NCBI GenBank assembly: GCA_964456585.1 | Contig: CAYWBT010000002.1 | Location: 1 to 57,135, forward strand | DNA length: 57,135 nt | Reading direction: 5' to 3' | Source: an uncultured bacterium | GTDB taxonomy: Bacteria; Latescibacterota; Latescibacteria; Latescibacterales; Latescibacteraceae | In this document: positions 11,106 through 44,307 of the stretch, piece by piece | Position numbering within the stretch: the first letter of the stretch is position 1 | How the letters are laid out: the number at the start of each line of letters is the position of its first letter | Made by a program: the position numbers and the translations under genes | The notes under the pieces: model-generated | What the model saw: the letters and a program-made list of their open reading frames with translations, nothing else | Databases searched by the model: none | What the model was told of the DNA's origin: nothing

Positions 11106-11398
11106 GAGATTCTCCTCTCCGGTTCGTGAGTCACTACCGGAATGAACAGGATGACAACACATTCAAAAAACAGGTCACTCCGTATATAAAATTGGGTGCC
11201 CAGCATATTATTCTACCAGATTTTAAAAATACTCTAATTTACCATAAAAAGACAGGAAGAGGTGTCCGTTCTTAAAAATAAACTATTTCCCTTGTGCGGG
11301 CAACCTCTTTCACCATGCCGCGCCGAAACGCTGATTGAATGGCATGGTGACACTTCTCGCACGCAGTGCACATAGTGTGTGACACGTATTGGTGCCGG

Positions 11399-15489: not shown

Positions 15490-16386
15490 ATGAAAATATC
15501 GATCGAGAACCTGAGCAAATTTTACAAAAACGGTACGGTAGCTCTTAAAAATGTCAATCTCGAGATCGAGAGCGGCATATTCGGTCTTCTCGGTCCGAAC
15601 GGTGCGGGAAAAACGACGCTCATGAGCATTCTGGTCACCCTGCTCGATCAGTCCGAGGGGCGGATAACGGTCGACCAGTACGACCTGCGGAAAAATCGCC
15701 GTGAGATCCGCGCCATGCTCGGATACCTGCCCCAGGAGTTCACCATGTTCTCACGGCTGAAAACGTGGGAATTTCTCGATTACGCGGCCAGGCTCGCCGG
15801 AGTAAAGTCGATAAATGACCGGAAACGAGCGGTCGAAGAAATGCTCGAAAATGTCGGTCTCTACGAAGCGCGGGACCGGAGTGCCAACAAGCTCTCGGGT
15901 GGCATGAAACGCAGGCTCGGTATAGCACAGGCACTCATCGGCCATCCCAAGATCGTCATAGTCGATGAACCGACAACGGGGCTTGATCCTGAGGAGCGGC
16001 TCCGTTTCAGGAACCTGCTTTCTGACATGAGCCGTGAGGATATCATCATTATCCTTTCGACTCATATTGTCGGGGATATTTCCAGCACGTGCGATAACAT
16101 GGCCATGCTCAACCGTGGCGAGTTGGTTTTCAACGATTCACCAGAGGTGCTCATCGATCAGGCGAGAGGGCATGTCTGGCTTATCGAGGTCGACGACAGC
16201 AGGCTCGAGCTGGTCAAGGCGAAATACCCGGTCATAGCAACCATACCATCCGAGAAGGGCTGGGAAGTCCAGGTGGTGAGCGAAACGCTCGATGGTTATA
16301 ACGGTCAACCGATTGAGCCAAATCTTGAACACGCGTTAGTTTATTTCAAGGAACACCAACCGGCCGAATCCTGGGAAGCGCAGTAA
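15490..16386 (+). CDS. ABC transporter ATP-binding protein (ABC-2 type partner, with C-terminal accessory domain)
   Basis: ORF 15412..16386. The ATG at 15490 follows AAAGGA. Walker A GLLGPNGAGKTT, Q-loop LGYLPQE, signature LSGGMKRR, Walker B IVIVDEPTTGLD, H-loop LSTH. Confidence 0.9.
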   Translation: MKISIENLSKFYKNGTVALKNVNLEIESGIFGLLGPNGAGKTTLMSILVTLLDQSEGRITVDQYDLRKNRREIRAMLGYLPQEFTMFSRLKTWEFLDYAARLAGVKSINDRKRAVEEMLENVGLYEARDRSANKLSGGMKRRLGIAQALIGHPKIVIVDEPTTGLDPEERLRFRNLLSDMSREDIIIILSTHIVGDISSTCDNMAMLNRGELVFNDSPEVLIDQARGHVWLIEVDDSRLELVKAKYPVIATIPSEKGWEVQVVSETLDGYNGQPIEPNLEHALVYFKEHQPAESWEAQ

Positions 16387-16448
16387 AAAAGCGTGCCCGG
16401 ACATGTACAAACGTACGTACGAACTCCCGATATTGAGAGGTGACATAC

Positions 16449-19400
16449 ATGCTCTCGCTCTATAACATCCTGAGTATTGCTCTCTACGAAATCAAGACGC
16501 TCTCGAGAAGCTGGTTCTTCAGGATATTCTCCGTGGTCACGATAGTCATTCTCATTTTTCTCAACACGGTTCTGTTCATCACCCCCCAGTCGGCGCCATG
16601 GATGCTGCGGGGCGTCTCATCATCAATACCGTACCTGAACCTGATGCTCCTCAATGTTGTCCAGGCGATCATCGGAATTTTTATGGCATCCGACTTTTTC
16701 AAGTACGACAGGAAGCTTGACAGCACCCAGGTCATCTATATGCGTTCCATGACCAACGCCGACTACGTATTGGGAAAAGCTCTGGGAGTTTGTATCCTCT
16801 TTCTTTTTATCAACGTGCTTATATTGATCCTCTCATTCGTTTTTAACATGTTTTTTGCCGATGTACCGGTAGTATTCCAGATGTACCTGTACTATCCGCT
16901 CCTCATCAGTTTCCCGACACTGGTTTACATCTTCGGGCTCTCGTTCATCTCCATGGCAATCTTCAAGAGCCAGGCCGTCACCTTTATTATCCTTCTCGGG
17001 TACATTGCCAGCACACTCTTCTTCCTGGGTGGTAAATTTCACCACCTCTTCGATTACATGGCATACCAGGTGCCGCTCTTGTACTCGGACTTTGTCGGAT
17101 TCGGTGTCGTGAGTCCCATTCTCATTCATCGGGGAATGTACCTGTTTCTTGGCCTGGGCTTCACCTTCGCCACCGTGCTCTTCCTGAAACGTCTGCCCCA
17201 GTCGGTGATTATGAACCGGATATCGCTGATACTGTCGATCGCCCTTATCGTCGGCGCAGGCGCGCTCGGATTTGTCTATGTCTCCCAGATTACCTCGGGA
17301 AAGGAATTGCGCCGTGAGATGGCGGCGTTGAACAAGCTCTCAGCAGATGAACCGAAAGCGGCGATGGCCACCTGTCGTCTCGAGCTTGAGCACCACGGCG
17401 ACACAATCGCTGTCACCGCCGAGATGACCCTCGAAAACACGACCTCGGTACCGCTCGACACATTCATATTCAGTCTTAATCCTGCCCTCATCGTCGCCCA
17501 GGCGACCATGGGGAGCACCGATGTCGAGTATACCCGTAATCTGCACCTGGTCTCGGTTAAACCGACTACACCGCTCCAACCGGGCGACACCGCGAATGTC
17601 ACCCTCTCATACCACGGCCGGATCGACGAAGAGGCATGCTATGTCGATATCGACGAAGACATACGTGAAGAGAACTACCGGTTGTTCCTCTACAACATCG
17701 ACAAGCGCTATGCGTTCATCACTCCCGACTACCTGCTGTTAACGCCGGAAGCCCTTTGGTATCCTTCAACGGGAGTACCGTACGGTTCTGGGTACCCGAA
17801 CATGCAGAACAGAGATTTTGTGAATTACGAACTCACCGTTTCGACCGCACAGGATTTGACAGCGGTTTCCCAGGGTGCGATGGAAAGAACCGGCGAGGGA
17901 GCGTTCCGGTTCAGACCGGAGTCCCCCCTTCCGCAGATCTCGCTCTCCATCGGGCAGTACGAACTTAAATCGGTAACCGTGGACAGCACGTCCTACAACC
18001 TCTACGTGTTGAAGGGCCACGACTATTTTTCGCAGTACTTCACCACGATCGGTGAAAAACTCACGGAATCCATCAAAGAAGTCAGGCAGGATTACGAGCG
18101 TTCAATCAATGGTATCTACCCATTCAAGAGATTCACCGTTATCGAGGTGCCGATCCAGTTTTACGCCTATGAACGGGCCTGGACACTGGGCCAGGAAGTC
18201 GTGCAGCCCGAACAGGTTCTCCTGCCCGAGAAGGCAGTCATGCTGTTCAGCGCGGACTTCAAACGGTCTCGCTACGGGTTTGAACGGCGCGGCCGACGAG
18301 ATGCAACGCAAACACCCGAGGAAATGGAGCAGCAGCTCTTCCAGCGTTTCGTTCAGAATACCTTCATCACCGATTTTTTCGGGCGAAGATTTGGCAGCGT
18401 TCGGCGTAGTATGGGCAGACAGGGCGGATTATCATTTCAGCGGATTTTCTTCAGCTTTCTGCCGTCCTTTTCAACAAACTATAACGTTTTTCCAAACTTT
18501 TTTACCTTTACCACCTATTTCCATTCCGAAAACTACCAGATTTTTAATATCATTCTTGAACACTACCTGAAGGGCAAACTCGAGAACAGAAACGTCGGAT
18601 TCATGCGATTCATTCAGGGAATCAGTAGCGAGGAATTGGCAAACAGTGCGCTTGCAAAGGAAACACTCCCCGAAATTCTCGCCGATCCCGAGAAGAAAGA
18701 CCTCGTGTATGATGTTCTAAAAATGAAATCGGATTATCTCTTCGGACTGATCAAGGCAGAGGTCGGCGCAGAAGCGTTCGAAGAGTTCCTGACGGAATTC
18801 ATCGCTGGGCACACGTTCAGGACGGTCGAGGTTGACGAATTCATCAGGGCCGTCTACGAGAATTTTCTCCTCGACCTCGAACCGCGCCTTCAACAGTGGT
18901 ATCATGTGAAAGAATTGCCAGCCTTCCTCGTCACCGGCCTGAAATGCACCGAGATTATTGATTTCGACGCCACCCGGTATAAGGTCGTCTTCACGGTTTC
19001 TAATCCTGAACCGATTGAGGGACTCATCCGGATTAGCGCCATGACCGGCGGGGGAGGTCGCGGTATGGGTGGCCGGGGGGGAATGTCGTTCGGGGGTCCA
19101 ACGCCTGCAGACGAAGAATTCTACATTCTCAAGGCTCATCAAGCCAAGGAAATTGGGATGGTTCTTGACCAACCGCCACGGATTCTTCAATTCAATACGT
19201 ACATTTCCCAGAATATCCCCTACCAATTTGATCAGAATCCCGGGGAACCGCAGACAGATGACTTCAGTGAAATATTCGAGGGTGAGCAAATCCTTGATGA
19301 TCTTCCCCTTTTTCTCGAACCTGGTGAGATCATTGTCGACGATGAGGACGATGGCTTCGAGATTCTCACCCAGCAGAAAGAAAACGCGATTAAAAAATTC

Positions 19401-19865
19401 CTCCTCCGGAATACCGTGGAGGAGGAATTCACGGGGCTGAATTTCTGGCATCCTCCCTCAAAATGGAGTGCCGCAGTCAACAATAATTCGTACGGAAAGT
19501 ACCGACACTCCACGCACTTCAAGAAGTCCGGTGACGGCAGTCAATTGGTTCGGTGGAAAGCGGACATTCCCGAGACCGGCAAATATGATGTCTACTACTA
19601 TACCCAGAATTTCGCCCAGCAAGGCATGTTCCGCAGGGGGGGGCGGGGACGATTCGGCAATACGGATATCCTCGCAGATCTTTCTTTCACTGTCTATCAT
19701 GATGACGGTACCGAAGAAGTGACGCTGGATCTCAAGGACATTGAGGAGGAGTGGAGCTATTTGGGCACCTATTATTTCTCCCAGGGTCAGGCGAAAATTG
19801 AACTGTCCGACAAATCGAAGGGACGGATCGTCTATGCCGACGCGGTCAAGTGGAAGAAAAAATAG
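16449..19865 (+). CDS. Fusion protein: ABC-2 type permease (about 7 TM), M1 aminopeptidase-like domain lacking HExxH, and a golvesin C-terminal-like domain
   Basis: ORF 16440..19865. The ATG at 16449 lies 8 nt after GAGAGG. About 290 aa of hydrophobic N-terminus. A central region resembles the M1 N-terminal beta and catalytic folds (LELEHHGDTIAVTAEMTLENT..., YPFKRFTVIEVP). C-terminus is GKYDVYYY...VYADAVKWKK. Confidence 0.7.
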   Translation: MLSLYNILSIALYEIKTLSRSWFFRIFSVVTIVILIFLNTVLFITPQSAPWMLRGVSSSIPYLNLMLLNVVQAIIGIFMASDFFKYDRKLDSTQVIYMRSMTNADYVLGKALGVCILFLFINVLILILSFVFNMFFADVPVVFQMYLYYPLLISFPTLVYIFGLSFISMAIFKSQAVTFIILLGYIASTLFFLGGKFHHLFDYMAYQVPLLYSDFVGFGVVSPILIHRGMYLFLGLGFTFATVLFLKRLPQSVIMNRISLILSIALIVGAGALGFVYVSQITSGKELRREMAALNKLSADEPKAAMATCRLELEHHGDTIAVTAEMTLENTTSVPLDTFIFSLNPALIVAQATMGSTDVEYTRNLHLVSVKPTTPLQPGDTANVTLSYHGRIDEEACYVDIDEDIREENYRLFLYNIDKRYAFITPDYLLLTPEALWYPSTGVPYGSGYPNMQNRDFVNYELTVSTAQDLTAVSQGAMERTGEGAFRFRPESPLPQISLSIGQYELKSVTVDSTSYNLYVLKGHDYFSQYFTTIGEKLTESIKEVRQDYERSINGIYPFKRFTVIEVPIQFYAYERAWTLGQEVVQPEQVLLPEKAVMLFSADFKRSRYGFERRGRRDATQTPEEMEQQLFQRFVQNTFITDFFGRRFGSVRRSMGRQGGLSFQRIFFSFLPSFSTNYNVFPNFFTFTTYFHSENYQIFNIILEHYLKGKLENRNVGFMRFIQGISSEELANSALAKETLPEILADPEKKDLVYDVLKMKSDYLFGLIKAEVGAEAFEEFLTEFIAGHTFRTVEVDEFIRAVYENFLLDLEPRLQQWYHVKELPAFLVTGLKCTEIIDFDATRYKVVFTVSNPEPIEGLIRISAMTGGGGRGMGGRGGMSFGGPTPADEEFYILKAHQAKEIGMVLDQPPRILQFNTYISQNIPYQFDQNPGEPQTDDFSEIFEGEQILDDLPLFLEPGEIIVDDEDDGFEILTQQKENAIKKFLLRNTVEEEFTGLNFWHPPSKWSAAVNNNSYGKYRHSTHFKKSGDGSQLVRWKADIPETGKYDVYYYTQNFAQQGMFRRGGRGRFGNTDILADLSFTVYHDDGTEEVTLDLKDIEEEWSYLGTYYFSQGQAKIELSDKSKGRIVYADAVKWKKK

Positions 19866-19921
19866 TAGCAAGGATACAGTTTATTACGTGCACCATCTGA
19901 AAAAAAGGAACGGGTAATCCG

Positions 19922-21418: not shown

Positions 21419-21491
21419 GAACATAATCGAACGGGATGACATCATAGTTTTGAAACACGTCATTGAGACATTCTTACCACAGGAGCATACG

Positions 21492-22544: not shown

Positions 22545-22735
22545 TCCGGACTGCATTTCCCCGGGAACATCCGAGTCGGTTTCACCTGCGGATGAAACGG
22601 GAAAAGAGAAAGACACTTCTGACACGCGAGGTTCTTGATGAGTGCACGGCGGAGAGCATATCGCTTGGGAAACACGTATCACGCTGACTGTTTTTCGGCC
22701 GCACCGTTCATACAACTCAAACAGAAACGAGACTC

Positions 22736-25700
22736 ATGAATAAAATAGCCCGCTTCTCAGTCGAATATCCGATTACGGTCTTTATGATCGTTCTTGCTGT
22801 ACTCTTGCTCGGTTACATTTCGTTCAGCAAACTGGGAATGGATCTGTTTCCCGATCTCAACAATCCGAGAATATTCGTCGAGATCAAGACGGGAGAGCGT
22901 CCTCCCGAAGAGATCGAAAAACAGTTTGTTAAGAACATCGAGGCACTCTCGATCCAGCAGAAGGGGGCGGTGAAGGTCTCCTCGATCATCCAAACTGGGG
23001 CAGCGCTGGTAACCGTCGAATATGCGTGGAACACAAACATGGACGAGGCGTTCCTCAACCTTCAGAAAACGCTCACCTCCTTCACCCAGAACGAGGAGAT
23101 CGACGAACTGGTCATCAGTCAGCACGATCCCAATGCCACACCGATTATCACCCTCGGCCTGTCACATCCGGACATCACTGACATGGATGAACTGCGGCGG
23201 ATTGCGGAAAACTATCTGCGCAACGAGTTGATCCGCATGGAGGGAATCGCCGATGTGGGAATTATGGGCCAGGAGGAGAAGGAAGTCGTAATTTCCACGA
23301 ACAATTACCTGATGAAGGCGTACGGTGTGACTCCATCAACCATCGCCAGCCGCATCGATGAGTATAACCGCAATGTCTCCGGCGGCTCTATTGTCGAGAT
23401 GGGATTGAACTATATCATCAGGGGAGTCGGTGAATTTAACTCTCTCGAAGATATCAGCAATCTCATCATCACCTACAAAACTCCCGAGGTACTCACCAAC
23501 ACCGCTTCTGCTACCGGGGAAAAAACACCGGTCTTCCTGAAGGATATCGCCGAGATCGAGTTCCGGAACAAAAAGCCGGATAACATTGTCCGGATCAATG
23601 GTAAGCGGTGCCTCGGTCTCTCCATCTATAAGGAGACGAAGTTCAATACGGTGAAAATCGTCGATACATTCTTCGAGAACCTCGACGTACTCCGCCGCGC
23701 TCTGCCCGGTTATGAACTGACCATCATCCAGAACCAGGGAGCGTTCATTACCAATGCGATCGATGAAGTCAAGCAGACCGCCCTGATCGGCATCTTCTTC
23801 GCGGTGCTCATCCTGTTTGTATTCCTCCGGCGAATAAGCGCAACCATCATCATCAGCCTCGCCATCCCCATCTCGATCGTCGCCACGTTCAACCTGATGT
23901 ACTTCCGCGGGCTGACGCTGAATATCATGACGCTTGGGGGGCTTGCCCTTGGCGCCGGCATGCTCGTTGATAATGCAATCGTGGTCATGGAAAGCATCTT
24001 TCGTAACCTCGAATCCGGGCTTACGCTCAAGGAGGCGTCGGTCGCAGGCACCTCGCAGGTTGCAGGGGCGATTACCGCTTCCACGGTGACCACGATTGTC
24101 GTGTTCCTTCCCATCGTATACCTGCACGGGACCGCTGGTGAACTCTTCAGGGAGCAGGCATGGACCGTGGCATTCTCGCTGTTGTCATCGCTCGTGGTGG
24201 CGATCCTTGTCATACCGATGTTGAGTACGAAAATCCTTAGGGGAACAGCGAAAACCATGTTGAGAGAACGATCGATCAGGTTCCCCCGTTACAAGAAATT
24301 CCTCTCTGCCGTTCTCGGAATGCGCTGGCTGGTCATCACGGCTGCGGTGGTACTCACCTTCGCCGCCTTCCGTATGATCCCCCTGATCGGAAGCGAATTT
24401 ATGCCCAAGACAGACCTCAACGAATTCTCGATCGATATAAAACTCCCGGAGGGCACCGAACTCTTCCGCACCGAAAATGTGGTCGATAATATCGAAAAGA
24501 ACATCCAGGGAGTCCTGGGGAATAACGTAAAAACAATCTACAGCACCATCGGCCCCAGCGAGGTAGAAAGCACCGATGAGAGCGATGCCCTCAAGGATGA
24601 GAACTCTGCGACGATTAAACTTATCCTCACCGACAATACCCTGATGACGCCAAATATGGTCTTCCAGCATTTGGACGCCATACTCTCGGTAATTCCCGAT
24701 CTCGAATCGAATATCACCCAGGAAGAAACCGTCCTGCAACTGACCCTCGGGACAGAAGCCGCGCCGATCGCTGTTGAAATCAGGGGGGAAGACCTCGAAC
24801 TACTCCAGGAATTGACCGAACAGGCGCGGGAGCAGTTGAGCGCCATCGAAGACCTCTATAACATCGAGACCAGCTTCGACGAGGGCAGGCCGGAGATCGA
24901 AATCCTTCTCGATCGTACACGGGCCGGCCTAAACAATGTGAGCATCAATCAGCTCGGCACAGAGATCCGTAACCAGCTCATGGGAACAAGCGCCGGAAAG
25001 TGGGAGAGCGAGGGTGAAATGCGCGACATCACCATCGAACTGCCGAAAGTCGGGGCACATCAGCTCGAGGACATTGTGATTGCCGCCAACAATCGCGATA
25101 TCTCGCTCTATGAGATTGCAAACATTGGCTACGCTCTGGCACCAAAGGAGATACTGCGGGAAAACCAGACACGCGTGGGAAAGATTACCGCCAATCTGAA
25201 GAAGACACAGCCGCTCGACCATGTTGTCAGTGAAATCAATGAGAAAATGAGCAGTCTCTCGTTTCCTCCGGACTACACGTTCGAGATAACCGGGGAAGAG
25301 CAAAAACGCCGTGAGGCCTTCGACAACCTGAAATTCGCCCTGATCCTGTCGGTGATTCTCGTCTACATGGTCCTGGCATCGCAATTCGAATCGCTCATCC
25401 ACCCGTTTACCATCCTGCTTTCGATACCGCTCGCCACTGTCGGCGCTCTCCTGATCTTTCTCATACTCGGCAGATCGCTCAACATCATGGCATATATCGG
25501 CATCATCATGCTTGCCGGTATAGCGGTCAATGACTCGATCATCCTCGTGGATGCGGTCAACCAGTTGAAGAACGAGGGACTCTCGCGTTTCGATGCGATC
25601 ATCGAGGCCGGGCAACGGCGTATTCGACCGATTATCATGACCAGTCTGACAACCATCCTGGCGCTCCTGCCGCTGACCTTCGGTTTCGGCGAGGGAGCAT

Positions 25701-25834
25701 CACTCCGGTCGCCGATGGCACTCGCGGTGATTGGAGGTTTGATTACCTCCACGCTGCTGACGCTCGTTGTTATACCCTGTGTGTACTCTGTTATGGACGC
25801 ACTCGGGACGCGGTTGTCTTCACTTCTCAGTTAG
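22736..25834 (+). CDS. RND efflux transporter permease (AcrB/HAE1-like), 1032 aa
   Basis: Typical start FSVEYPITVFMIVLAVLLLGYISFSKLGMDLFPDL. 12-TM, two-large-loop layout. GMLVDNAIVVMESI and GIAVNDSIILVD motifs in TM4/TM10. Confidence 0.9.
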   Translation: MNKIARFSVEYPITVFMIVLAVLLLGYISFSKLGMDLFPDLNNPRIFVEIKTGERPPEEIEKQFVKNIEALSIQQKGAVKVSSIIQTGAALVTVEYAWNTNMDEAFLNLQKTLTSFTQNEEIDELVISQHDPNATPIITLGLSHPDITDMDELRRIAENYLRNELIRMEGIADVGIMGQEEKEVVISTNNYLMKAYGVTPSTIASRIDEYNRNVSGGSIVEMGLNYIIRGVGEFNSLEDISNLIITYKTPEVLTNTASATGEKTPVFLKDIAEIEFRNKKPDNIVRINGKRCLGLSIYKETKFNTVKIVDTFFENLDVLRRALPGYELTIIQNQGAFITNAIDEVKQTALIGIFFAVLILFVFLRRISATIIISLAIPISIVATFNLMYFRGLTLNIMTLGGLALGAGMLVDNAIVVMESIFRNLESGLTLKEASVAGTSQVAGAITASTVTTIVVFLPIVYLHGTAGELFREQAWTVAFSLLSSLVVAILVIPMLSTKILRGTAKTMLRERSIRFPRYKKFLSAVLGMRWLVITAAVVLTFAAFRMIPLIGSEFMPKTDLNEFSIDIKLPEGTELFRTENVVDNIEKNIQGVLGNNVKTIYSTIGPSEVESTDESDALKDENSATIKLILTDNTLMTPNMVFQHLDAILSVIPDLESNITQEETVLQLTLGTEAAPIAVEIRGEDLELLQELTEQAREQLSAIEDLYNIETSFDEGRPEIEILLDRTRAGLNNVSINQLGTEIRNQLMGTSAGKWESEGEMRDITIELPKVGAHQLEDIVIAANNRDISLYEIANIGYALAPKEILRENQTRVGKITANLKKTQPLDHVVSEINEKMSSLSFPPDYTFEITGEEQKRREAFDNLKFALILSVILVYMVLASQFESLIHPFTILLSIPLATVGALLIFLILGRSLNIMAYIGIIMLAGIAVNDSIILVDAVNQLKNEGLSRFDAIIEAGQRRIRPIIMTSLTTILALLPLTFGFGEGASLRSPMALAVIGGLITSTLLTLVVIPCVYSVMDALGTRLSSLLS

Positions 25835-25939
25835 GAATGAAGAAGAATCCACGACGGACAGATCCCGGAGTCCGTTTCCCGGCTTGCCCTCCGGGCGAAC
25901 CAGTTCATGTACGATCGATATGAGAGAAACCGTGATATC

Positions 25940-28900
25940 ATGAAATTTATTATAACCCGAAAAGTTTTCATCAGCATGCTGTTTATCGGCGTTACCCTCC
26001 TCGGGTACATTTCATATTCACAGCTGCCGGTGGAACTCCTTCCCAATGCAGAAGTCCCCTTCCTGATCGTCATGGTGAACAGTACGATCGATGTGGATCC
26101 CGATTACCTGGAGAAGGAGGCGATTATTCCGCTCGAGGGAGCGGTCAGCACGCTGGAGGGAATCGACGAAATCGAATCCACCATACAGAGTCAACGCGGA
26201 ACAATCTACGTCTACTACAACCAGAATGTCGAGATCAAGTACGCCTACCTGAAACTCCAGGAGCGGGTGAACGAGATCAAATCCTCCATCTCGGAGGAAT
26301 TCCGCATCAACGTGGTCAAGATCGATACCGAGCGGCTGTCAAACCAGTTCATGACCCTCCAGGTCAGGGGGAGCGGCGGGCAGGAACGGATTCGCTCGAT
26401 TGTCGACGAAAAAGTATCCCCGGAACTTCAGAGCATCGATGGTATCGCAAACGTAGAAATCGTGGGGGGAAATGTCCGGGCACTCGAAATTATTCTCGAT
26501 GAAGACGCCTACAGCCAATACAACATTACGCCCGCGAGGATCAGGTCGCTCATTTCCCAGAATACCCAGAGTAAAACGTTCCTCGGCTGGGCAGGAGAGA
26601 ACGACCGGCGGTACGTTGTCAACCTGCTTACCGAATACACCGATGTGAGCAACATCGAGGACATTATTGTCGTTCCCGAAGGTCCGATCTTGCTCAAAGA
26701 TATCGCGGACATCAACTTCGGTCAGAAGGAACAAGAGTCCATCAGCCGCGTCAATGGCATGGAGGCGGTCTCCATCAGCCTGGTCCGTGACTCGCAAACC
26801 AATCTCATTGAACTCTCCCATACCACAGTAGTACGTATCAGCGAACTGAACGAACGGCTCGCATCCCAGGATATCGAAATCGTCATCCAGACCAACACCG
26901 CCGCGGATGTGGAGGAGAATATCAACCTCATCATCGAACTCGCGCTTATCGGCGGCGCATTGGCGGTGGTCATTCTTTGGTTCTTCCTCAGAAACCTGCG
27001 GCTTGTGCTTATCATGATGCTGGCGATTCCGATCTCGGTGTTTACCGCATTTAACTTCTTTTACGCGTTCGGCATAAGCCTCAACAGCTTTACCCTCGTG
27101 GGAATCGCTCTCGCAGTGGGCATGCTCCTCGATAACAGCGTGGTTGTCCTCGAGAACATCTACCGGCTCGTAGAGAACCGAAAAGATAGCGATACCGCGG
27201 TTATTCAGGGGACACGCGAGGTCTGGCGCGCCATACTCGCGGCAACCCTCACCACGATAACCGTGTTTCTGCCATTCGTGTTCTCCACAAACTACCTGGT
27301 AAGACTCATCGGACGCCATGTCGGCGTTTCAATCATCTCGACTCTCCTCGTCTCACTCGTGGTGGCGTTGCTCCTCGTACCGATGGCAACCCACTTCTTC
27401 CTCAAGCGGCGGCCCCGTGAACGGAGCTTTAAGTTTCACCGTATATCACAGCGGAACCGCCTGGTTCAGATATATACCCTCCTGTTGAAAACAGCAATGC
27501 GGTACCCGGCACAGACGATCATCGGTGCGGTCGTTGCCTTTTTTGCGAGTATTCTCATCTGCATGTCTTTGAGCATGACAGTGCCGAGCGAGATCGATCT
27601 CACGGAGTTCAACCTGTATGTGACCATGTCGCGCGGTTCCACCCTCGAAATGACCGATACGATCGTTGCGGACTTCGAAGAAAAAATCTCGGGTATAGAG
27701 GAGATTAAGGATATCGTCTGCACTATCTATGACGAAGAAGCGAACATCACGGTTATTCTGAAAGACGATTTTGAATCGATCGCGAACAGAACCATCGCGC
27801 AGATTAAAAACGAAATCGAGGAACAGGCTGATAATTTCCGCGCGGCCGACATCAGCATGTCCGAGCCCCAGTCGAGCAGGCGTTTCGGGGGCGGTATGCG
27901 GAGTAATCCCATGGCATCCCTGGAACGGATGTTCGGGATCGGCAGTCCCCAGGAAAAGGTCGTGGTCAAGGGCAACGACTTCGGCATGATCCGCACGGTC
28001 GCAGAAGATGTCAAGTACTACATCGACAATCTCGAGTCGATAAACAACGAGGCACGGTTGAGTATATCGGGAAACCGCCCGGAAATACACCTGCTCTTCG
28101 ACAACCAGCTTCTGAGCCTGTACGACATCTCCCTGAACAACATTGCCGCGGAGTTGTCATCGTTCCAGCGAGAGTCAACCACCAATATGAAGTTCAAGCA
28201 GGGAACCGAGGAATACGACATCATCATCAAAACCAATGAGCCCGAAGAGGAAAAAACGTTCGCGGATCTCAAGGAACTCCCGGTACCAGATCGTGCAGGA
28301 GCGCCCCATGTCCTCGAAAACGTGAGCCGGATCATCTACTCGTACGGCACCTCGGAAATTACCCGCATCAACCAGGAGAAGCAGGTCGAGGTATCGTTCA
28401 GTTTCCTGGAAGACATCACCGATTCCAAAACGCTCCTCGGCGAATCGCGTGAAGAGGTCGAGGACCTTATCGCCAGCATAGCGCTTCCGCCGGGTGTCGC
28501 GGTCGAGCTGGTTCACGATGAAACTGAGTACAACGAGTTCTACTACCTTATCGCTGCGGCCTTTATCCTGATTTACATGATTCTTGCCTCGGTGTTCGAA
28601 TCCCTCTCGACCCCGGTTGTCATGATGTTCACAATCCCCCTCGCCGCGATCGGGGCGTTCTGGGCGCTGATTTTCACCGGCAATTCGATCTTCAACGCCA
28701 ACTCGCTCATCGGGCTTCTCATACTCCTGGGGGTGGTGGTCAATAACGGGATTATTCTCATCGACTATACCCGTATACTTCGTGTGCGCGGGCTCGGCCG
28801 GACGAGGGCGCTCATGATGGCCGGCCAAGCGCGTGTTCGTCCCATTCTCATCACCACGATCACGACAATCTTCGCCATGCTGCCCCTCGCCATGGGAAAT

Positions 28901-30673
28901 ACTGAGCAGATATCGCGCATCGGCGCGCCGTTCGCCATTACCGTGATCGGTGGTCTTGCGCTGAGTACGTTGTTTACGCTGGTCTTTATCCCGACCGTCT
29001 ACTCGGGGATGGAGATGGCGATCGACTGGCTGCGGAATCTCTCCTGGAAAATGAAGCTTCTCCAGGTCTTCCTGTTTATAACCGGCGGCCTGCTCGTCTA
29101 TCTCTATATCGAGAGTGTACTCTGGCAGTTTGCCTACCTGTTCTTCCTCGTGATGGCAGTCCCCGGCGGAACCTACTTTGTCATGAACAGCCTACGCCGT
29201 GCACAGAGTGATGTTGTCGGACAGGAGAAATCGCTCATCATCACCATCAGGCAAACCGTGAAGATATACGACAACTATAGCAGGTTCGTGCGCGAATGGA
29301 AGAAGGGGGAAAGGCTCGAGCGGCTCTACGGCCGGGTGAAAGATTATCGGTCATGGCGTGATTTTGCCGCGTTCCAGTGGCAGATCCCCCTCCTCGGATT
29401 TCTGGTTTATTTCACCTACTGGTATCTGGAGAGCAATTTCTGGCAGTTCGTTCTCTCGCTCGTGGCGTACTTCTACGTGTTTCTCCTGCTGATGCCGATC
29501 CGCAGGTACCTCGAAAATCGGGCCGACCAAACGGGCAGGGATATTCACCGCCGTGACGGTCAGCTCCTCTACCACCTCATCCTGTGGGGGGTTCCCGGTC
29601 TCAATCTGTGGTTTTTCTCCACCCGGAATTTCAAACCCGGTATACTGGCTTTTATCGCCATCGCCTGGGTCGCCACCCTTGGGATTTACACCATATCGAA
29701 CCGCCTCCATGCGGGCAGGGTCAACATTATGCGGCTGACCGGCCGATTAGCAAATCTCCGGAAAAATATCTACCGATTCGTGCTCTTCATCCCGGTGATC
29801 GGAAGAAAGAAAAATCCGTTCAACGCCCTCGATGGTGTCTCGCTCGAAATCGGAAGCGGCATGTTCGGTCTTCTGGGACCGAACGGCGCCGGTAAAACAA
29901 CCATAATGCGTATCATCTGCGGTATATTGAATCAGACGATGGGAACCATTTCTATCAACGAGAACGATTACCGCACGAAACGCGAAGAGCTCCAGGGTCT
30001 CATCGGCTACCTGCCGCAGGAATTCGGAACCTATGAAAATATGACTGCATACGAATTCCTTGACTACTTAGCGATCCTCAAAAGCATCTATGACAGTGAG
30101 AAACGGAAAAATATTGTGAACTACGTGCTTGAGTCAGTCCATCTCGACGACCATAAACATCAGAAGATCAACTCATTCTCGGGAGGCATGAAACAGCGGG
30201 TTGGTATCGCGCTGACCCTTCTCCACCTTCCCCGGATCCTCGTGGTGGATGAGCCGACTGCGGGACTCGACCCCCGAGAGCGCATTCGCTTCAGAAACCT
30301 GCTCGTCGAACTGAGCCGCGACAGGATCGTGATATTCTCCACCCACATTATCGAGGATATTTCCAGTTCCTGCAACAAGCTCGCCGTACTCAACCGCGGC
30401 GCCCTCTACTACATCGGCAAACCTGCCAAAATGATCGACTCCGCCAGGGGAAATGTCTGGCAGTTCGTCGTGAGCGAGCAAGAGTTCGGAACCTTGCGGC
30501 ATGAGATCAGAATCGTGCACCACATGAAGTTCGATAAGGGAATCAGGATTCGCTGCCTTGCCGAAACGAAACCGCATCCGGAAGCGATCACGGTCAATCC
30601 AACCCTGGAAGATGCCTACCTGTGGCTTCTTGGCGAAGTTCCCCAGGCTGTGCGAGCGGAGGATACGGTATGA
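25940..30673 (+). CDS. Single-ORF fusion: complete RND efflux permease, about 6 additional TM helices, and a C-terminal ABC transporter ATP-binding domain
   Basis: Uninterrupted ORF 25907..30673 with a likely ATG at 25940 (MKFIITRKVFISMLFIGVTLLGY...). RND core to about 29030 (GMLLDNSVVVLENI, GVVVNNGIILIDY). Hydrophobic hairpins from about 29040 to 29760. Then Walker A GLLGPNGAGKTT (29867-29902), LIGYLPQE, FSGGMKQR (30176-), ILVVDEPTAGLD, FSTH. Confidence 0.85.
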   Translation: MKFIITRKVFISMLFIGVTLLGYISYSQLPVELLPNAEVPFLIVMVNSTIDVDPDYLEKEAIIPLEGAVSTLEGIDEIESTIQSQRGTIYVYYNQNVEIKYAYLKLQERVNEIKSSISEEFRINVVKIDTERLSNQFMTLQVRGSGGQERIRSIVDEKVSPELQSIDGIANVEIVGGNVRALEIILDEDAYSQYNITPARIRSLISQNTQSKTFLGWAGENDRRYVVNLLTEYTDVSNIEDIIVVPEGPILLKDIADINFGQKEQESISRVNGMEAVSISLVRDSQTNLIELSHTTVVRISELNERLASQDIEIVIQTNTAADVEENINLIIELALIGGALAVVILWFFLRNLRLVLIMMLAIPISVFTAFNFFYAFGISLNSFTLVGIALAVGMLLDNSVVVLENIYRLVENRKDSDTAVIQGTREVWRAILAATLTTITVFLPFVFSTNYLVRLIGRHVGVSIISTLLVSLVVALLLVPMATHFFLKRRPRERSFKFHRISQRNRLVQIYTLLLKTAMRYPAQTIIGAVVAFFASILICMSLSMTVPSEIDLTEFNLYVTMSRGSTLEMTDTIVADFEEKISGIEEIKDIVCTIYDEEANITVILKDDFESIANRTIAQIKNEIEEQADNFRAADISMSEPQSSRRFGGGMRSNPMASLERMFGIGSPQEKVVVKGNDFGMIRTVAEDVKYYIDNLESINNEARLSISGNRPEIHLLFDNQLLSLYDISLNNIAAELSSFQRESTTNMKFKQGTEEYDIIIKTNEPEEEKTFADLKELPVPDRAGAPHVLENVSRIIYSYGTSEITRINQEKQVEVSFSFLEDITDSKTLLGESREEVEDLIASIALPPGVAVELVHDETEYNEFYYLIAAAFILIYMILASVFESLSTPVVMMFTIPLAAIGAFWALIFTGNSIFNANSLIGLLILLGVVVNNGIILIDYTRILRVRGLGRTRALMMAGQARVRPILITTITTIFAMLPLAMGNTEQISRIGAPFAITVIGGLALSTLFTLVFIPTVYSGMEMAIDWLRNLSWKMKLLQVFLFITGGLLVYLYIESVLWQFAYLFFLVMAVPGGTYFVMNSLRRAQSDVVGQEKSLIITIRQTVKIYDNYSRFVREWKKGERLERLYGRVKDYRSWRDFAAFQWQIPLLGFLVYFTYWYLESNFWQFVLSLVAYFYVFLLLMPIRRYLENRADQTGRDIHRRDGQLLYHLILWGVPGLNLWFFSTRNFKPGILAFIAIAWVATLGIYTISNRLHAGRVNIMRLTGRLANLRKNIYRFVLFIPVIGRKKNPFNALDGVSLEIGSGMFGLLGPNGAGKTTIMRIICGILNQTMGTISINENDYRTKREELQGLIGYLPQEFGTYENMTAYEFLDYLAILKSIYDSEKRKNIVNYVLESVHLDDHKHQKINSFSGGMKQRVGIALTLLHLPRILVVDEPTAGLDPRERIRFRNLLVELSRDRIVIFSTHIIEDISSSCNKLAVLNRGALYYIGKPAKMIDSARGNVWQFVVSEQEFGTLRHEIRIVHHMKFDKGIRIRCLAETKPHPEAITVNPTLEDAYLWLLGEVPQAVRAEDTV

Positions 30674-31401
30674 ACATGAAAACGTTTTCCCATCACGCGA
30701 CCAACATTCTGCAGGTGACATTCAAACTGTTCAGGTACAACGTGAAGGTTATCTTCGCCAACAAGTTCCCTTATTTCCTCACCGCCGCTGTCGTGATATT
30801 TCTTGGGGTAACCCTCATGAACCTGCTGAGCGCCAACGCTGATCCAAGCGAAGCGACCGGGTACTGGCTCCTGCTCGTGCCGGGTATCCTGCTCGTTTTC
30901 TACCCGACGACCTTCGGAATCCAGAACGACATCGATACCCGCATGATCGAAATACTGTTCGGTATTCCTAACTACCGCTACAAGGTATGGCTGGTGCGTT
31001 TGTTCCTGATATTTCTGGTTGCCGTCGTTATCCTGACTGTGCTCGCCGTAGTACTCTCCTACATCCTCATCGACATTCCGGTCACGAAGATGATCATTCA
31101 ACTCATGTTTCCGGTTTGCTTTATCGGCAGCCTTGCCTTCATGTTCTCGACGATCATCCGGAACGGCAACGGCACTGCCGTGGTGATGGTGCTCATCGGC
31201 ATGGTGTTCTGGTTTTCACAGGGACAGATCAGCCTCAGCGAATGGAACCTCCTCCTCAATCCATTCGGTACGCCGGAAAACGTCCTCCAGACGGCATGGG
31301 AGGAAACCATCTTCAACAACAGGATATACCTTCTGGTGGGTTCGGTGATCGCGATGCTCTGGGGACTGCTCAACCTCCAGAAACGCGAACGGTTTATCTG
31401 A
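30670..31401 (+). CDS. ABC-2 type transporter permease (6 TM)
   Basis: ORF 30622..31401. The ATG at 30670 overlaps the upstream TGA (ATGA). About six hydrophobic segments, and its size is typical of ABC-2 permeases. Confidence 0.7.
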   Translation: MNMKTFSHHATNILQVTFKLFRYNVKVIFANKFPYFLTAAVVIFLGVTLMNLLSANADPSEATGYWLLLVPGILLVFYPTTFGIQNDIDTRMIEILFGIPNYRYKVWLVRLFLIFLVAVVILTVLAVVLSYILIDIPVTKMIIQLMFPVCFIGSLAFMFSTIIRNGNGTAVVMVLIGMVFWFSQGQISLSEWNLLLNPFGTPENVLQTAWEETIFNNRIYLLVGSVIAMLWGLLNLQKRERFI

Positions 31402-42794: not shown

Positions 42795-42834
42795 ACCCGG
42801 ATTCACCTTTCATAAAGGTTATCGTGCGTACAGT

Positions 42835-43443: not shown

Positions 43444-43474
43444 ATACTATCGCCTCCGTTACTTCTCTCATTTC

Positions 43475-43864: not shown

Positions 43865-43904
43865 TAGACACCTCCTTTATCTACTTGTACATGACAATAC
43901 AACA

Positions 43905-44279: not shown

Positions 44280-44307
44280 GTACTATAACCTCCGTTTTAT
44301 AAAAAAA

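What the first reader, a model, noticed from the sequence alone, without database searches (positions are those of the whole stretch)
15490..31401. Composite same-strand locus: two ABC-2 systems bracketing a TolC-MFP-RND-RND core
Seven consecutive plus-strand genes with short spacers form one apparent module:
- NBD (15490-16386)
- giant ABC-2 permease fusion (16449-19865)
- TolC (19922-21418)
- lipoprotein MFP (21492-22544)
- RND-1 (22736-25834)
- RND-2::NBD fusion (25940-30673)
- ABC-2 permease (30670-31401, ATGA-coupled)

Classical tripartite pumps use either an RND or an ABC (MacB-type) inner-membrane engine. Here both energy classes are encoded together, one of them fused, and the ABC parts are ABC-2 type (NatAB/GldAF-like), not MacB type. 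The locus is bounded by a 184-bp spacer upstream and a convergent ligA downstream, which suggests a discrete operon-like unit. I cannot read the substrate from the sequence. The periplasmic M1-like and golvesin-like domains hint at a peptide- or glycan-decorated envelope component rather than small-molecule drugs; this is inference.
Basis: partly seen in the sequence, partly recalled or inferred. Interest (0 to 1): 0.75.

Follow-up and report, generated by a model that had tools for sequence, protein, structure and literature searches.

The report
Conserved RND pump fused to ABC ATPase
Seven neighbouring genes encode a cell-envelope export pump in which a proton-driven (RND) transporter is permanently fused to an ATP-driven (ABC) motor; hundreds of bacterial species keep the same arrangement, and I found no paper that describes it.

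Summary
There are seven plus-strand genes:
- an ABC ATPase;
- a 1138-aa permease;
- a TolC-family channel;
- a lipoprotein RND adaptor;
- RND-1;
- an RND-2::ATPase fusion;
- a 243-aa membrane protein.

A search seeded with the permease found at least 542 species genomes. Of 56 loci with enough flank, 53 keep the order, and all 53 keep the fusion in frame. They include Bacteroidota (cultured Prolixibacteraceae), Latescibacterota, KSB1, Krumholzibacteriota, Gemmatimonadota, Calditrichota and Melioribacteraceae. Flanking genes differ between phyla.

New details:
- The permease ectodomain has an M1-aminopeptidase fold but no zinc site in 0 of 120 homologues. It ends in a lectin-type module.
- The 274-aa junction holds six extra membrane helices. 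It occurs only in these fusions.
- The ATPase's first strand appears to be separated from its core by four of those helices.

Most likely this is one export machine: an MdtBC-like RND core served by two ATP-driven ABC-2 loaders. Its cargo is unknown. The complex and the hand-over are inferred.

A rejected lead: the altered proton-relay residues also occur in ordinary pumps.

Verdict: a new variant of a known kind, interest 0.75.

The parts
15490..16386 (+). g1, the free ABC ATPase (NBD-1, 298 aa). It belongs to the ABC-2 class (DrrA/GldA-like) and has a C-terminal beta domain.
   Evidence: ABC_tran E 1e-32. Best NCBIfam matches are DrrA (204 bits) and GldA (183 bits), both below their cut-offs. 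Walker A, signature, Walker B and H-loop are all canonical. It is 44% identical to the fused NBD-2. It lies directly upstream of g2 in 70 of 71 loci.
16449..17343 (+). g2 membrane part (aa 1-298): an amphipathic N-terminal helix, six NosY-like ABC-2 membrane helices, and a seventh stalk helix that carries the rest of the protein into the periplasm.
   Evidence: AF2 model with pLDDT 82.4 and pTM 0.80 shows helices 4-20, 22-44, 59-82, 103-136, 143-172, 175-196, 221-245 and 253-298. ABC2_membrane_2 matches 28 of 43 family members, best E 3e-10. The window's own copy does not match at E<=1.
17346..19298 (+). g2 periplasmic pseudo-aminopeptidase (aa ~300-950): an M1-aminopeptidase fold without the zinc site.
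   Evidence: Foldseek against PDB finds IRAP, ERAP1 and PepN at E 5e-18 to 1e-14, with about 660 aligned columns and about 10% identity. Peptidase_M1 (C-terminal part of the catalytic domain) matches 42 of 43 members. The PDB profile search finds 3cia and 4kx7. None of 120 homologues has HExxH or GxMEN.
19446..19865 (+). g2 C-terminal lectin-type module (Golvesin_C, InterPro CBM6-CBM35-CBM36_like_2).
   Evidence: Golvesin_C is above its cut-off in 43 of 43 members. The profile matches the C-terminal domain of Paenibacillus xanthan lyase 6f2p at E 2.5e-7. The domain class is described as carbohydrate-binding in PMC9166713.
19922..21418 (+). g3, the TolC-family outer-membrane factor (498 aa), with a signal peptide and no lipobox.
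   Evidence: OEP E 3e-45 over two stretches; TolC and NodT NCBIfam models match below their cut-offs. N-terminal sequence read.
21492..22544 (+). g4, the lipoprotein periplasmic adaptor (MFP, 350 aa) of the RND type.
   Evidence: TIGR01730 RND_mfp scores 182.9 bits against a cut-off of 94.9. HlyD_D23 also matches. The lipobox is LIAAC.
22736..25834 (+). g5, RND-1 (1032 aa), a full-length RND permease with no ATPase attached.
   Evidence: ACR_tran E 1e-208. The closest solved structure is MdtB 9lyq at E 1e-86. It is 29% identical to RND-2.
25940..29005 (+). g6, RND-2 portion of the fusion (aa 1-1022), with 12 membrane helices.
   Evidence: ACR_tran over aa 2-1022, E 3e-160.
29006..29827 (+). 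g6 junction (aa 1023-1296). It holds two extra membrane helices (aa ~1036-1085) and a conserved cytosolic strand, IITIRQTVKIY (aa 1101-1110; K1108 and Y1110 are invariant). Cytosolic helices follow, then four more membrane helices (aa ~1145-1258).
   Evidence: AF2 model with pLDDT 82.4 gives the secondary structure. phmmer against 1.84 billion representatives finds only 89 hits, and every full-length one carries the junction at about aa 1025-1297 of a 1550-1585-aa fusion. hhalign finds no similarity to g7 or to the g2 membrane part.
29816..30673 (+). g6, NBD-2 core (aa 1293-1577), an ABC-2-class ATPase with canonical motifs and a C-terminal beta domain.
   Evidence: ABC_tran E 4.5e-28; GldA and DrrA are the best models. 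Foldseek finds TM_1403, LptB, NosF and MetN. Joining aa 1098-1112 to aa 1293-1577 extends the GldA model match from position 16 back to position 3, a gain of 4.3 bits.
30670..31401 (+). g7, a 243-aa six-helix membrane protein that overlaps the fusion's stop codon (ATGA). It is the probable ABC-2-type partner of NBD-2.
   Evidence: 5468 protein clusters match, all unnamed and about 240 aa. ABC2_membrane_3 matches weakly in 12 of 29 members (best E 7e-6) and ABC2_membrane_2 in 4 of 29. g7 directly follows the fusion in all seven loci that reach that far: L001, L002, L004, L005, L088, L089 and L097. The best-conserved segments lie just before helix 1 and between helices 2 and 3.

Best explanation
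The seven genes encode one envelope-spanning export apparatus that is conserved in bacteria of the FCB group.

**Core.** The core is an MdtABC-like tripartite pump. It has a TolC-family outer-membrane channel, a lipoprotein RND-type adaptor and two diverged RND paralogues. The paralogues probably form a heterotrimer driven by the proton gradient.

**Two ATPase modules.** Two paralogous ABC-2-class ATPase modules are attached to this core.
1. NBD-2 is covalently tied to the C-terminus of RND-2 through six extra membrane helices. It works with the small membrane protein g7.
2. NBD-1 works with g2. g2 is a seven-helix NosY-like permease that holds an 850-residue binding ectodomain in the periplasm. 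That ectodomain is a zinc-less M1-aminopeptidase fold plus a lectin-type module.

**Proposed operation.**
- The ATP-driven modules act as loaders.
- NBD-2/g7 moves cargo out of the cytoplasm or the inner leaflet, right beside the RND trimer.
- NBD-1/g2 uses ATP to work its periplasmic binding domain, much as NosFY works NosD.
- The RND trimer then expels the cargo through the adaptor and the channel.

A heterotrimer with two RND-2 subunits and one RND-1 would supply exactly the two NBD-2 copies that an ABC dimer needs. That would explain why a second, unfused RND paralogue is always kept.

**Shown:** gene content, the fusion, the folds, and conservation of order.
**Inferred:** the physical complex, its stoichiometry, the hand-over, and a glycan- or peptide-bearing cargo.
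For: - **Conserved order.** Loci found through the fusion keep it in Calditrichota, Krumholzibacteriota, Gemmatimonadota and unnamed lineages. That includes the most diverged fusion examined.
- **Independent seed.** Among 79 loci found through g2, 70 of 71 have NBD-1 upstream. Of 56 with at least 9.6 kb downstream, 53 are collinear, and all 53 keep the fusion in frame.
- **Flanks differ.** Nothing upstream or downstream is conserved across phyla, so selection acts on the seven genes as a set.
- **Order survives insertions.** Mobile genes have landed in two intergenic gaps of L089 without changing the order.
- **Old, exclusive fusion.** More than 120 full-length homologues exist. The junction is found nowhere else among 1.84 billion representative proteins.
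- **One adaptor, one channel.** Only one of each is encoded for all the engines, and the adaptor is RND type.
- **Active, related ATPases.** Both have intact catalytic motifs. They are each other's close paralogues, 44% identical.
- **g1 and g2 travel together.** The pair duplicates as a unit in L008.
- **A binding ectodomain.** g2 has the M1 fold without catalytic motifs, plus a carbohydrate-binding module.
- **Precedent for heterotrimers.** E. coli MdtBC is a B2C heterotrimer (PMC4462101; PMC8277102). MdtB is the closest solved relative of RND-1.
Against: - There are no expression, interaction or phenotype data of any kind.
- g7 is only weakly recognisable as an ABC-2 permease. It shows no similarity to the g2 membrane part or to the junction.
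- Two KSB1 genomes end the module after the adaptor gene and continue with nusA and infB. The two halves can therefore be encoded apart.
- g2 paralogues also occur outside the module, without an ATPase gene beside them.
- Two short contigs have an in-frame stop at the RND-2 | junction boundary. The covalent link may therefore be dispensable.
- No biosynthetic or regulatory gene is conserved next to the module, so the cargo cannot be read from context.
- The RND proton-relay pattern matches that of ordinary stand-alone pumps. Nothing in the RND sequence points to unusual energy coupling.
- Coordinates of the models were not available, so contacts between parts could not be inspected.
Confidence: 0.5

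Rival explanations
1. The genes are neighbours under common regulation but encode mechanistically independent transporters: an MdtABC-like RND pump and two separate ABC-2 exporters. On this view they act on related substrates without forming a complex. The fusion only guarantees equal dosage or co-localisation.
For: Functional cooperation between single-component inner-membrane transporters and tripartite pumps, without physical contact, is established (review PMC4338810, listed). KSB1 genomes separate g1-g4 from the RND genes. g2 paralogues exist away from the module. There may be split versions of the fusion.
Against: The fusion is kept in frame in 53 of 53 loci and in more than 120 homologues across phyla. 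The 274-aa junction is conserved and found only here. That is hard to explain by dosage alone. Only one adaptor and one channel are encoded. The order of all seven genes holds while the flanks turn over.
Confidence: 0.2
2. The two ABC halves form a single heterodimeric ABC-2 transporter, NBD-1·g2 with NBD-2·g7. One RND-2 subunit tethers it to a trimer of two RND-1 and one RND-2. On this view the locus holds one ABC system rather than two.
For: NBD-1 and NBD-2 are close paralogues, 44% identical including the C-terminal domain. They almost always co-occur. Each sits next to a different membrane partner, as in pairs of half-transporters. One NBD per trimer would also solve the mismatch between three-fold and two-fold symmetry.
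Against: Both ATPases keep fully canonical catalytic motifs, whereas heterodimeric ABC pairs often carry one degenerate site. The g1-g2 pair duplicates as a unit in L008. That pair stays with the adaptor and channel genes when the module is split, which suggests it can work alone. g2 and g7 show no detectable similarity to each other.
Confidence: 0.15
3. NBD-2 with g7 and the junction helices is not a transporter. It is an ATP-dependent gate, assembly factor or sensor for the RND pump, acting by mechanotransmission as MacB, FtsEX or BceAB do. Pump activity would then be tied to the cell's ATP level or to the presence of substrate.
For: The ATPase's first strand, with its A-loop tyrosine, appears to be separated from the core by four membrane helices. 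That would couple nucleotide binding very directly to the membrane part next to RND-2. The junction resembles no known transport domain. Mechanotransmission by ABC proteins is established (PMC8277102).
Against: g7 has the size, helix count and weak family signal of an ABC-2 permease. NBD-2 belongs to the exporter-associated DrrA/GldA/NodI/LptB-like class. No sensor kinase or regulator is conserved nearby.
Confidence: 0.12
4. The long ORF is an artefact: a lost stop codon, a frameshift or a chimeric assembly has joined an RND gene to an ABC gene.
For: None beyond prior suspicion of any 1577-aa hybrid ORF. Two short contigs do show a stop at the junction.
Against: More than 120 independent full-length homologues come from NCBI, JGI, ENA and Logan assemblies. 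In 53 of 53 genomes the reading frame is continuous, among them isolates and one complete genome, Gaoshiqia hydrogeniformans Z1-71. The junction sequence is itself conserved, with invariant residues.
Confidence: 0.01

Closest known systems
MdtABC-TolC of Escherichia coli (heterotrimeric RND pump)
   Same: Two adjacent, diverged RND paralogues are served by one RND-type adaptor and a TolC-family channel. MdtB is the closest solved structure to RND-1. MdtBC works as a B2C heterotrimer (PMC4462101).
   Different: Here one paralogue carries six extra membrane helices and an ABC ATPase. The channel gene lies inside the module, and two ABC-2 modules are added. The paralogues are 29% identical and score equally against the MdtB and MdtC models, far below the equivalog cut-offs. 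The duplication is therefore independent of the MdtB/MdtC one. The TM4/TM10 residues are D-N/N instead of D-D/K.
MacAB-TolC and DevBCA-type ABC tripartite pumps
   Same: An ATP-driven inner-membrane engine with a large periplasmic domain works with an adaptor and a TolC-family channel. ATP energy is used for work in the periplasm (mechanotransmission; PMC8277102).
   Different: No FtsX/MacB membrane domain is present. The membrane parts are ABC-2 (type V-like) with a C-terminal rather than an inter-helix periplasmic domain. The adaptor is RND type; the MacA model scores only 43 bits. RND engines are present as well.
NosDFY (ABC-2 complex that powers a periplasmic partner)
   Same: The g2 membrane part belongs to the NosY-like ABC2_membrane_2 family, and JGI names some homologues accordingly. 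NosF is among the structural matches of NBD-2. In both systems an ABC-2 engine is joined to a large periplasmic domain.
   Different: The periplasmic partner is fused to the permease. It has an M1-peptidase-like fold with a carbohydrate-binding module, not the NosD beta-helix. No NosD, NosL or NosZ gene is present, and the context is an efflux pump.
M1 zinc aminopeptidases (PepN, ERAP1, IRAP)
   Same: The multi-domain fold matches over about 660 columns (Foldseek E down to 5e-18). Profile similarity covers the C-terminal part of the catalytic domain.
   Different: HExxH and GxMEN are absent in all 120 homologues examined. The domain is anchored to an ABC-2 permease and followed by a lectin-type module. 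It is therefore a pseudo-enzyme.
GldA/GldF/GldG gliding-motility ABC transporter and NodIJ of rhizobia
   Same: Both ATPases score best, or nearly best, against the GldA and DrrA models and also match NodI. All are ABC-2-class exporters, and the GldAFG system is from the same superphylum. From my own knowledge, the ABC-2 exporter NodIJ and RND-type Nol proteins have both been implicated in export of the same Nod factors. That would be a non-fused analogy.
   Different: The GldA score of 183 bits is far below the cut-off of 402.6. No NCBIfam model, GldF included, matched g7 at E<=0.01. None of the seven genes resembles GldG. No nodulation or gliding genes lie nearby.

Membership tests
RND tripartite efflux pump (HAE-type) | Full-length 12-helix RND permease (Pfam ACR_tran end to end) | tested here: met
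   RND-1 covers profile positions 1-1020 of 1021 at E 1e-208. RND-2 covers 3-1018 at E 3e-160.
RND tripartite efflux pump (HAE-type) | RND-type periplasmic adaptor and TolC-family outer-membrane factor encoded alongside | tested here: met
   TIGR01730 scores 182.9 bits against a cut-off of 94.9. OEP matches in two stretches at E 3e-45.
RND tripartite efflux pump (HAE-type) | Canonical HAE-1 proton relay (AcrB D407, D408, K940, R971, T978) | tested here: not met
   Both paralogues have D, N, N, R, T (RND-1 in 57 of 58 sequences, RND-2 in 58 of 59). Stand-alone pumps of Acetoanaerobium, Cetobacterium and Ilyobacter share this pattern. It is therefore a subfamily trait, not a sign of lost function.
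MdtBC heterotrimeric RND | Orthology to MdtB and MdtC (NCBIfam equivalog cut-offs) | tested here: not met
   RND-1 scores 345 bits against MdtB (cut-off 1584) and 346 against MdtC (cut-off 1774). RND-2 scores 256 and 263.
MdtBC heterotrimeric RND | Two RND paralogues forming a 2:1 heterotrimer | not testable with these tools
   Two adjacent paralogues are conserved. Stoichiometry needs biochemistry or a multimer prediction.
MacB-type ABC tripartite pump | FtsX-type four-helix membrane domain with a periplasmic domain between helices 1 and 2, and an N-terminal fused ATPase | tested here: not met
   No FtsX or MacB_PCD match in g2, g6 or g7.
ABC-2 (type V-like) transporter | ATPase with intact Walker A, Q-loop, signature, Walker B-Glu and H-loop | tested here: met
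   g1 has GPNGAGKTT, LSGGMKRR, VDEPT and STH. NBD-2 has GPNGAGKTT, FSGGMKQR, VDEPT and STH. DrrA and GldA are the best NCBIfam models.
ABC-2 (type V-like) transporter | Six-helix ABC-2 membrane domain recognised by a Pfam ABC2_membrane family (g2) | tested here: inconclusive
   ABC2_membrane_2 matches 28 of 43 family members, best E 3e-10, but not the window's copy at E<=1. The AF2 model shows an N-terminal amphipathic helix and six helices.
ABC-2 (type V-like) transporter | Six-helix ABC-2 membrane domain recognised by a Pfam ABC2_membrane family (g7) | tested here: inconclusive
   ABC2_membrane_3 matches 12 of 29 members, best E 7e-6; the window's copy scores E 1.6. ABC2_membrane_2 matches 4 of 29. 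The PDB profile search finds nothing real.
M1 zinc aminopeptidase | M1 fold (N-terminal beta domain, thermolysin-like catalytic domain, beta sandwich) | tested here: met
   Foldseek finds IRAP, ERAP1 and PepN at E 5e-18 to 1e-14 over about 660 columns.
M1 zinc aminopeptidase | HExxH-(18x)-E zinc site and GxMEN exopeptidase motif | tested here: not met
   None of 120 homologues carries HExxH or GxMEN.
GldAFG gliding-motility ABC transporter | GldA, GldF and GldG equivalogs | tested here: not met
   GldA scores 183 and 174 bits against a cut-off of 402.6. No NCBIfam model matches g7 or g2 at E<=0.01.
Golvesin_C / CBM6-35-36-like carbohydrate-binding module | Pfam PF25275 above its gathering score | tested here: met
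   62.9 bits against a cut-off of 31.6, and 43 of 43 members match. Sugar binding itself was not tested.
Anti-phage defence systems (PADLOC) | A specific match of any component to a defence-system model | tested here: not met
   The two ATPases give only generic ABC-ATPase matches. g2 and g7 give none.

The most novel reading that the evidence does not exclude
The fusion is a true dual-energy machine. ATP binding and hydrolysis in NBD-2 are transmitted mechanically, through the six junction helices and g7, to the RND-2 protomer. A single trans-envelope pump would then be driven or gated by both ATP and the proton gradient. The ATPase fold is split by a four-helix membrane insertion between its first strand and its core. 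That would be the first covalent hybrid of a primary and a secondary active transporter.
Probability: 0.3. Interest if true: 0.9.

Novelty: new variant of a known kind. Interest (0 to 1): 0.75.

Why it matters
Textbook tripartite pumps use one engine class: RND, ABC (MacB or type I secretion) or MFS. Here a proton-driven RND protomer is permanently joined to an ATPase. It sits with a second ABC module whose periplasmic part is a dead aminopeptidase plus a lectin.

The whole set is kept across at least six phyla and more than 500 species, including cultivable Prolixibacteraceae.

- **For transporter mechanics.** If the parts form one machine, it offers a natural system for two questions. One is how transport across the inner membrane is handed to transport across the outer membrane. 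The other is how a three-fold RND assembly accommodates a two-fold ABC dimer.
- **For annotation.** The pieces are currently labelled only 'efflux RND transporter permease', 'hypothetical protein' or 'M1 family aminopeptidase'. Those labels hide the system.
- **For microbial ecology.** The module is common in sediment and digester lineages such as Latescibacterota, KSB1 and Krumholzibacteriota, whose envelope biology is largely unknown.

Tried and rejected
1. **Loss of proton coupling in the fused RND.** Both paralogues carry D408N and K940N relative to AcrB. This first looked like evidence for an ATP-driven RND. Ordinary stand-alone pumps of Acetoanaerobium, Cetobacterium and Ilyobacter carry the same D-N/N-N/R/T pattern. 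The idea was dropped.
2. **g7, the junction helices and the g2 membrane part as duplicates of one another.** hhalign gives probabilities of 1% or less.
3. **A solved structure related to g7 by sequence.** The search returned only chance matches to BCL6.
4. **An active M1 peptidase.** The motifs are absent in all 120 homologues.
5. **A defence system.** PADLOC gave generic ATPase matches only.
6. **GldAFG or Nos membership.** Scores are below the cut-offs and the partner genes are absent.
7. **A conserved regulator or biosynthetic neighbour.** Nothing is shared across phyla. Prolixibacteraceae alone share a 194-aa DUF3244 protein upstream. The window's own 194-aa upstream ORF is unrelated to it.
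8. **Promoter and terminator scans.** Counts are not above the shuffled expectation, and the promoter consensus used may not apply to these phyla.
9. **Unfused ancestors of the junction.** P0393 and P0443 sit at contig starts, with an in-frame stop just upstream. Whether these are real split genes remains unresolved.
10. **Literature on an RND-ABC fusion, on this permease or on these organisms' pumps.** Nothing was found in the held library.
11. **Inspecting contacts in the models.** These are the DSSP strand assignment, the invariant K and Y residues, and a 4.3-bit gain in a splicing test.

Full report

Yes. The spacers are 62, 56, 73, 191 and 105 bp, and the last two genes overlap by ATGA. 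A 184-bp gap lies upstream, and a convergent NAD-dependent ligase lies downstream.

Pfam and NCBIfam assign the genes as follows:

| Gene | Coordinates | Assignment |
|---|---|---|
| g1 | 15490-16386 | ABC ATPase of the DrrA/GldA-like class |
| g2 | 16449-19865 | 1138 aa; only Golvesin_C is above threshold |
| g3 | 19922-21418 | OEP (TolC family) |
| g4 | 21492-22544 | RND-type adaptor, TIGR01730 above cut-off, lipobox LIAAC |
| g5 | 22736-25834 | full-length ACR_tran (RND-1) |
| g6 | 25940-30673 | ACR_tran over aa 2-1022 and ABC_tran over aa 1297-1441, in one ORF |
| g7 | 30670-31401 | no family above threshold |

The surrounding window is ordinary chromosome. It holds a DinG-like helicase, a heptosyltransferase, prephenate dehydratase, ligA and the ribosomal-protein superoperon. 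It has no tRNA or Rfam match.

**2. Is the fusion real?**

- The 1577-aa protein has more than 120 full-length homologues, 55-71% identical and 1556-1614 aa long. They come from NCBI, JGI, ENA and Logan assemblies.
- Where named, their sources are Latescibacterota, KSB1, Calditrichota, Krumholzibacteriota, Gemmatimonadota and others.
- The names they carry are generic: 'efflux RND transporter permease subunit' or 'ATP-binding cassette domain-containing protein'.

**3. Is the seven-gene order conserved?**

*Seeded with the fusion.* These loci all show g2 (Golvesin_C), OEP, adaptor, RND, fusion and a protein of about 235 aa, in that order, wherever the flank reaches:
- a Calditrichota MAG;
- a Krumholzibacteriota MAG;
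- a 1.67-Mb contig;
- a 701-kb contig;
- a Gemmatimonadota contig;
- the most diverged fusion I could find, whose junction is 27% identical.

The genes downstream of g7 differ every time.

*Seeded with g2.* I scanned one genome per species with an alignment of g2.
- At least 542 species encode a relative.
- I ran tblastn with the window's proteins against the best 79 loci.
- NBD-1 lies directly upstream in 70 of 71 loci.
- Of 56 loci with at least 9.6 kb downstream, 53 are collinear through RND-2 and the junction. In all 53 the RND-2-to-junction reading frame is open.
- These loci include isolates of Prolixibacteraceae: Draconibacterium orientale DSM 25947, Mariniphaga anaerophila DSM 26910, Sunxiuqinia elliptica, Maribellus luteus, Mangrovibacterium lignilyticum and Gaoshiqia. 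They also include a Melioribacteraceae MAG.

*Exceptions.*
- One Latescibacterota single-cell genome has g2 alone.
- Two KSB1 genomes stop after the adaptor gene and continue with a TPR gene, nusA and infB.
- One locus was simply too short.
- L008 carries a tandem duplication of the g1-g2 pair.
- L089 has GIY-YIG and Y1-transposase genes inserted in the two larger gaps without disturbing the order.

Nothing upstream of g1 is conserved across phyla. The module is therefore exactly these seven genes. There may be a seam between g4 and g5.

**4. Anatomy of g2**

- *Model.* An AF2 model built on 61 sequences has pLDDT 82.4 and pTM 0.80.
- *Membrane part.* It shows an N-terminal amphipathic helix, six membrane helices and a seventh long helix leading into the periplasm. 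It belongs to the NosY-like ABC2_membrane_2 family at the family level: 28 of 43 members match, best E 3e-10.
- *M1-like region.* Foldseek matches the periplasmic region to IRAP, ERAP1 and PepN at E down to 5e-18 over about 660 columns. Profile searches agree.
- *No active site.* None of 120 homologues has HExxH or GxMEN. The domain is a pseudo-peptidase, that is, a binding scaffold.
- *Lectin-type end.* The C-terminal 130 residues are a Golvesin_C module, similar to the C-terminal domain of a xanthan lyase (6f2p, E 2.5e-7). InterPro files this class as CBM6-CBM35-CBM36_like_2, and it occurs in Bacteroides lectins (PMC9166713).
- *Paralogue arrays.* Some Latescibacterota carry g2 paralogues outside the module, four in a row in L087. 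That would fit a role for g2 as a specificity subunit, though this is inference.

**5. Anatomy of the fusion's C-terminal third**

- *Layout.* An AF2 model of aa 1010-1577 has pLDDT 82.4. After RND helix 12 it shows, in order:
  - two membrane helices;
  - a 10-residue beta strand (aa 1101-1110, IITIRQTVKIY);
  - short cytosolic helices;
  - four more membrane helices;
  - the ATPase core.
- *The strand looks like the start of an ABC ATPase.* K1108 and Y1110 are invariant. The segment resembles the first strand and A-loop of g1 (KISIENLSKFY).
- *Splicing test.* Joining aa 1098-1112 to aa 1293-1577 extends the GldA model match from position 16 back to position 3 and adds 4.3 bits.
- *Inference.* The ATPase is split by a four-helix membrane insertion. 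I rate this as moderately supported, because I could not inspect model coordinates.
- *The junction is unique to this family.* phmmer against 1.84 billion representatives finds 89 hits. Every full-length one is a fusion of about 1570 aa.
- *Junction similarities.* The junction shows no profile similarity to g7 or to the g2 membrane part.
- *Structural matches.* They are ABC-2-class or related ATPases (TM_1403, LptB, NosF). ABCA-family half-transporters also match over 470-540 columns, but with high rmsd.

**6. g7**

- The family is large: 5468 clusters, all unnamed.
- The protein has six predicted helices.
- Its best-conserved segments lie just before helix 1 and between helices 2 and 3.
- Matches to ABC2_membrane_3 and ABC2_membrane_2 recur but stay below threshold.
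- It follows the fusion directly in all seven loci that reach that far.
- I call it a probable ABC-2-type partner of NBD-2. This is not proven.

**7. Energy coupling: a lead that failed**

- Aligned to AcrB, MdtB and MdtC, both RND paralogues keep D407, R971 and T978 but have N at positions 408 and 940.
- The closest solved pumps all have D-D or D-A at the first pair.
- As a control I fetched stand-alone RND genes from Acetoanaerobium, Cetobacterium and Ilyobacter replicons. These have an adaptor, with or without a TolC gene, and no ABC part.
- They show the same D-N/N-N/R/T pattern.
- The pattern is therefore a trait of this RND subfamily. It says nothing about ATP-driven RND transport.

**8. 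How it most likely works**

*Shown:*
- The seven genes are selected as a set.
- One adaptor and one channel serve all the engines.
- Both ATPases are catalytically intact.
- The two ATPases are close paralogues, 44% identical.
- One ATPase is welded to one of two RND paralogues, which are 29% identical to each other.
- g2 displays a non-catalytic binding ectodomain.

*Inferred:*
- The RND paralogues form a heterotrimer like MdtB2C (PMC4462101).
- The ABC-2 modules act as ATP-driven loaders for that trimer.
- NBD-2/g7 brings cargo across or out of the inner membrane next to the trimer.
- NBD-1/g2 works its periplasmic lectin and pseudo-peptidase domain in the way NosFY works NosD.
- The trimer expels the cargo through the adaptor and the channel.
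- Two RND-2 subunits per trimer would give exactly one NBD-2 dimer.
- One RND-2 per trimer would instead call for an NBD-1/NBD-2 heterodimer.

I cannot tell these two stoichiometries apart. The cargo is unknown. The ectodomain points to glycan- or peptide-bearing material, and the lack of any conserved biosynthetic neighbour points to a common envelope or environmental substrate.

I put 0.5 on the integrated-machine model. The rivals are independent but co-regulated pumps (0.2), a single heterodimeric ABC system on the trimer (0.15), a regulatory or gating ATPase (0.12) and an artefact (0.01).

**9. Comparison with known systems and novelty**

- The core works like MdtABC-TolC but is not orthologous to it. 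Scores are far below the equivalog cut-offs, and the duplication is independent.
- The ABC parts are not MacB type and are not GldAFG or NosDFY members.
- The ectodomain has the M1 fold but fails the catalytic membership test.
- Full-text searches found no description of an RND-ABC fusion or of this permease family. That library is incomplete.
- I rate the system a new variant of a known kind. Every part belongs to a known class. The covalent RND-ATPase hybrid, the family-specific junction and the fixed seven-gene composition are new.
- Interest is 0.75. The system is real and widespread, it would surprise transporter specialists, and it can be tested in cultivable strains. No function has been shown.

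Noticed in passing
window 41008-57076, minus strand: A ribosomal-protein superoperon with rpoA, S4, L17, map, adk, secY, S3 and L2. It explains the strongly negative GC skew and AT skew of the last 13 kb and shows that the window is core chromosome.
   Followed up: partly
window 6163-9018, minus strand: A 951-aa protein that joins an N-terminal RNase_T exonuclease domain to a DinG-type helicase (DEAD plus Helicase_C_2).
   Followed up: no
window 9876-11162, minus strand: A 428-aa protein with an EAL domain followed by an HDOD domain (cyclic-di-GMP signalling type). It lies next to an FMN reductase and a GT9 heptosyltransferase.
   Followed up: no
window 14721-15305, plus strand: A 194-aa ORF directly upstream of the module, with a signal peptide and a C-terminal hydrophobic helix. 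It has no Pfam or NCBIfam match, no relative in any of the 84 related loci searched, and no similarity to the 194-aa DUF3244 protein at the same position in Prolixibacteraceae.
   Followed up: yes
L087 6602-20861 (Latescibacterota GCA_042563565.1): Four tandem paralogues of the giant permease (1112-1125 aa) with no ATPase gene beside them, and a fifth ORF cut by the contig end. In L006 a single copy stands alone. The g2 family therefore also exists outside the module, possibly as exchangeable specificity subunits.
   Followed up: partly
L008 9007-22696: A tandem duplication of the ATPase-permease pair (g1-g2-g1-g2) ahead of the channel and adaptor genes. L026 has an unexamined 4.4-kb insert at the same place.
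   Followed up: partly
L051 and L063 (KSB1 MAGs): The module stops after the adaptor gene. A TPR protein, nusA and infB follow. The RND genes must lie elsewhere in the genome or be absent, which marks a natural seam between g4 and g5.
   Followed up: partly
L089 5755-6018 and 9349-9792: Small mobile-element genes (GIY-YIG, 87 aa; Y1 transposase, 147 aa) sit in the adaptor|RND-1 and RND-1|RND-2 gaps of an otherwise intact module.
   Followed up: no
L096 1-1645 and L097 1-3746: Two short contigs in which the junction-ATPase ORF is preceded by an in-frame stop right at the RND-2 boundary. These may be naturally split versions of the fusion. In L097 an OEP gene follows g7, which is a different gene order.
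   Followed up: partly
window 22736-29005 and control loci L090, L092, L095: An RND subfamily has Asn instead of AcrB's Asp408 and Lys940 (pattern D-N/N-N/R/T). It is present here and in stand-alone pumps of Clostridia and Fusobacteriota. None of the closest solved RND structures has this pattern.
   Followed up: yes
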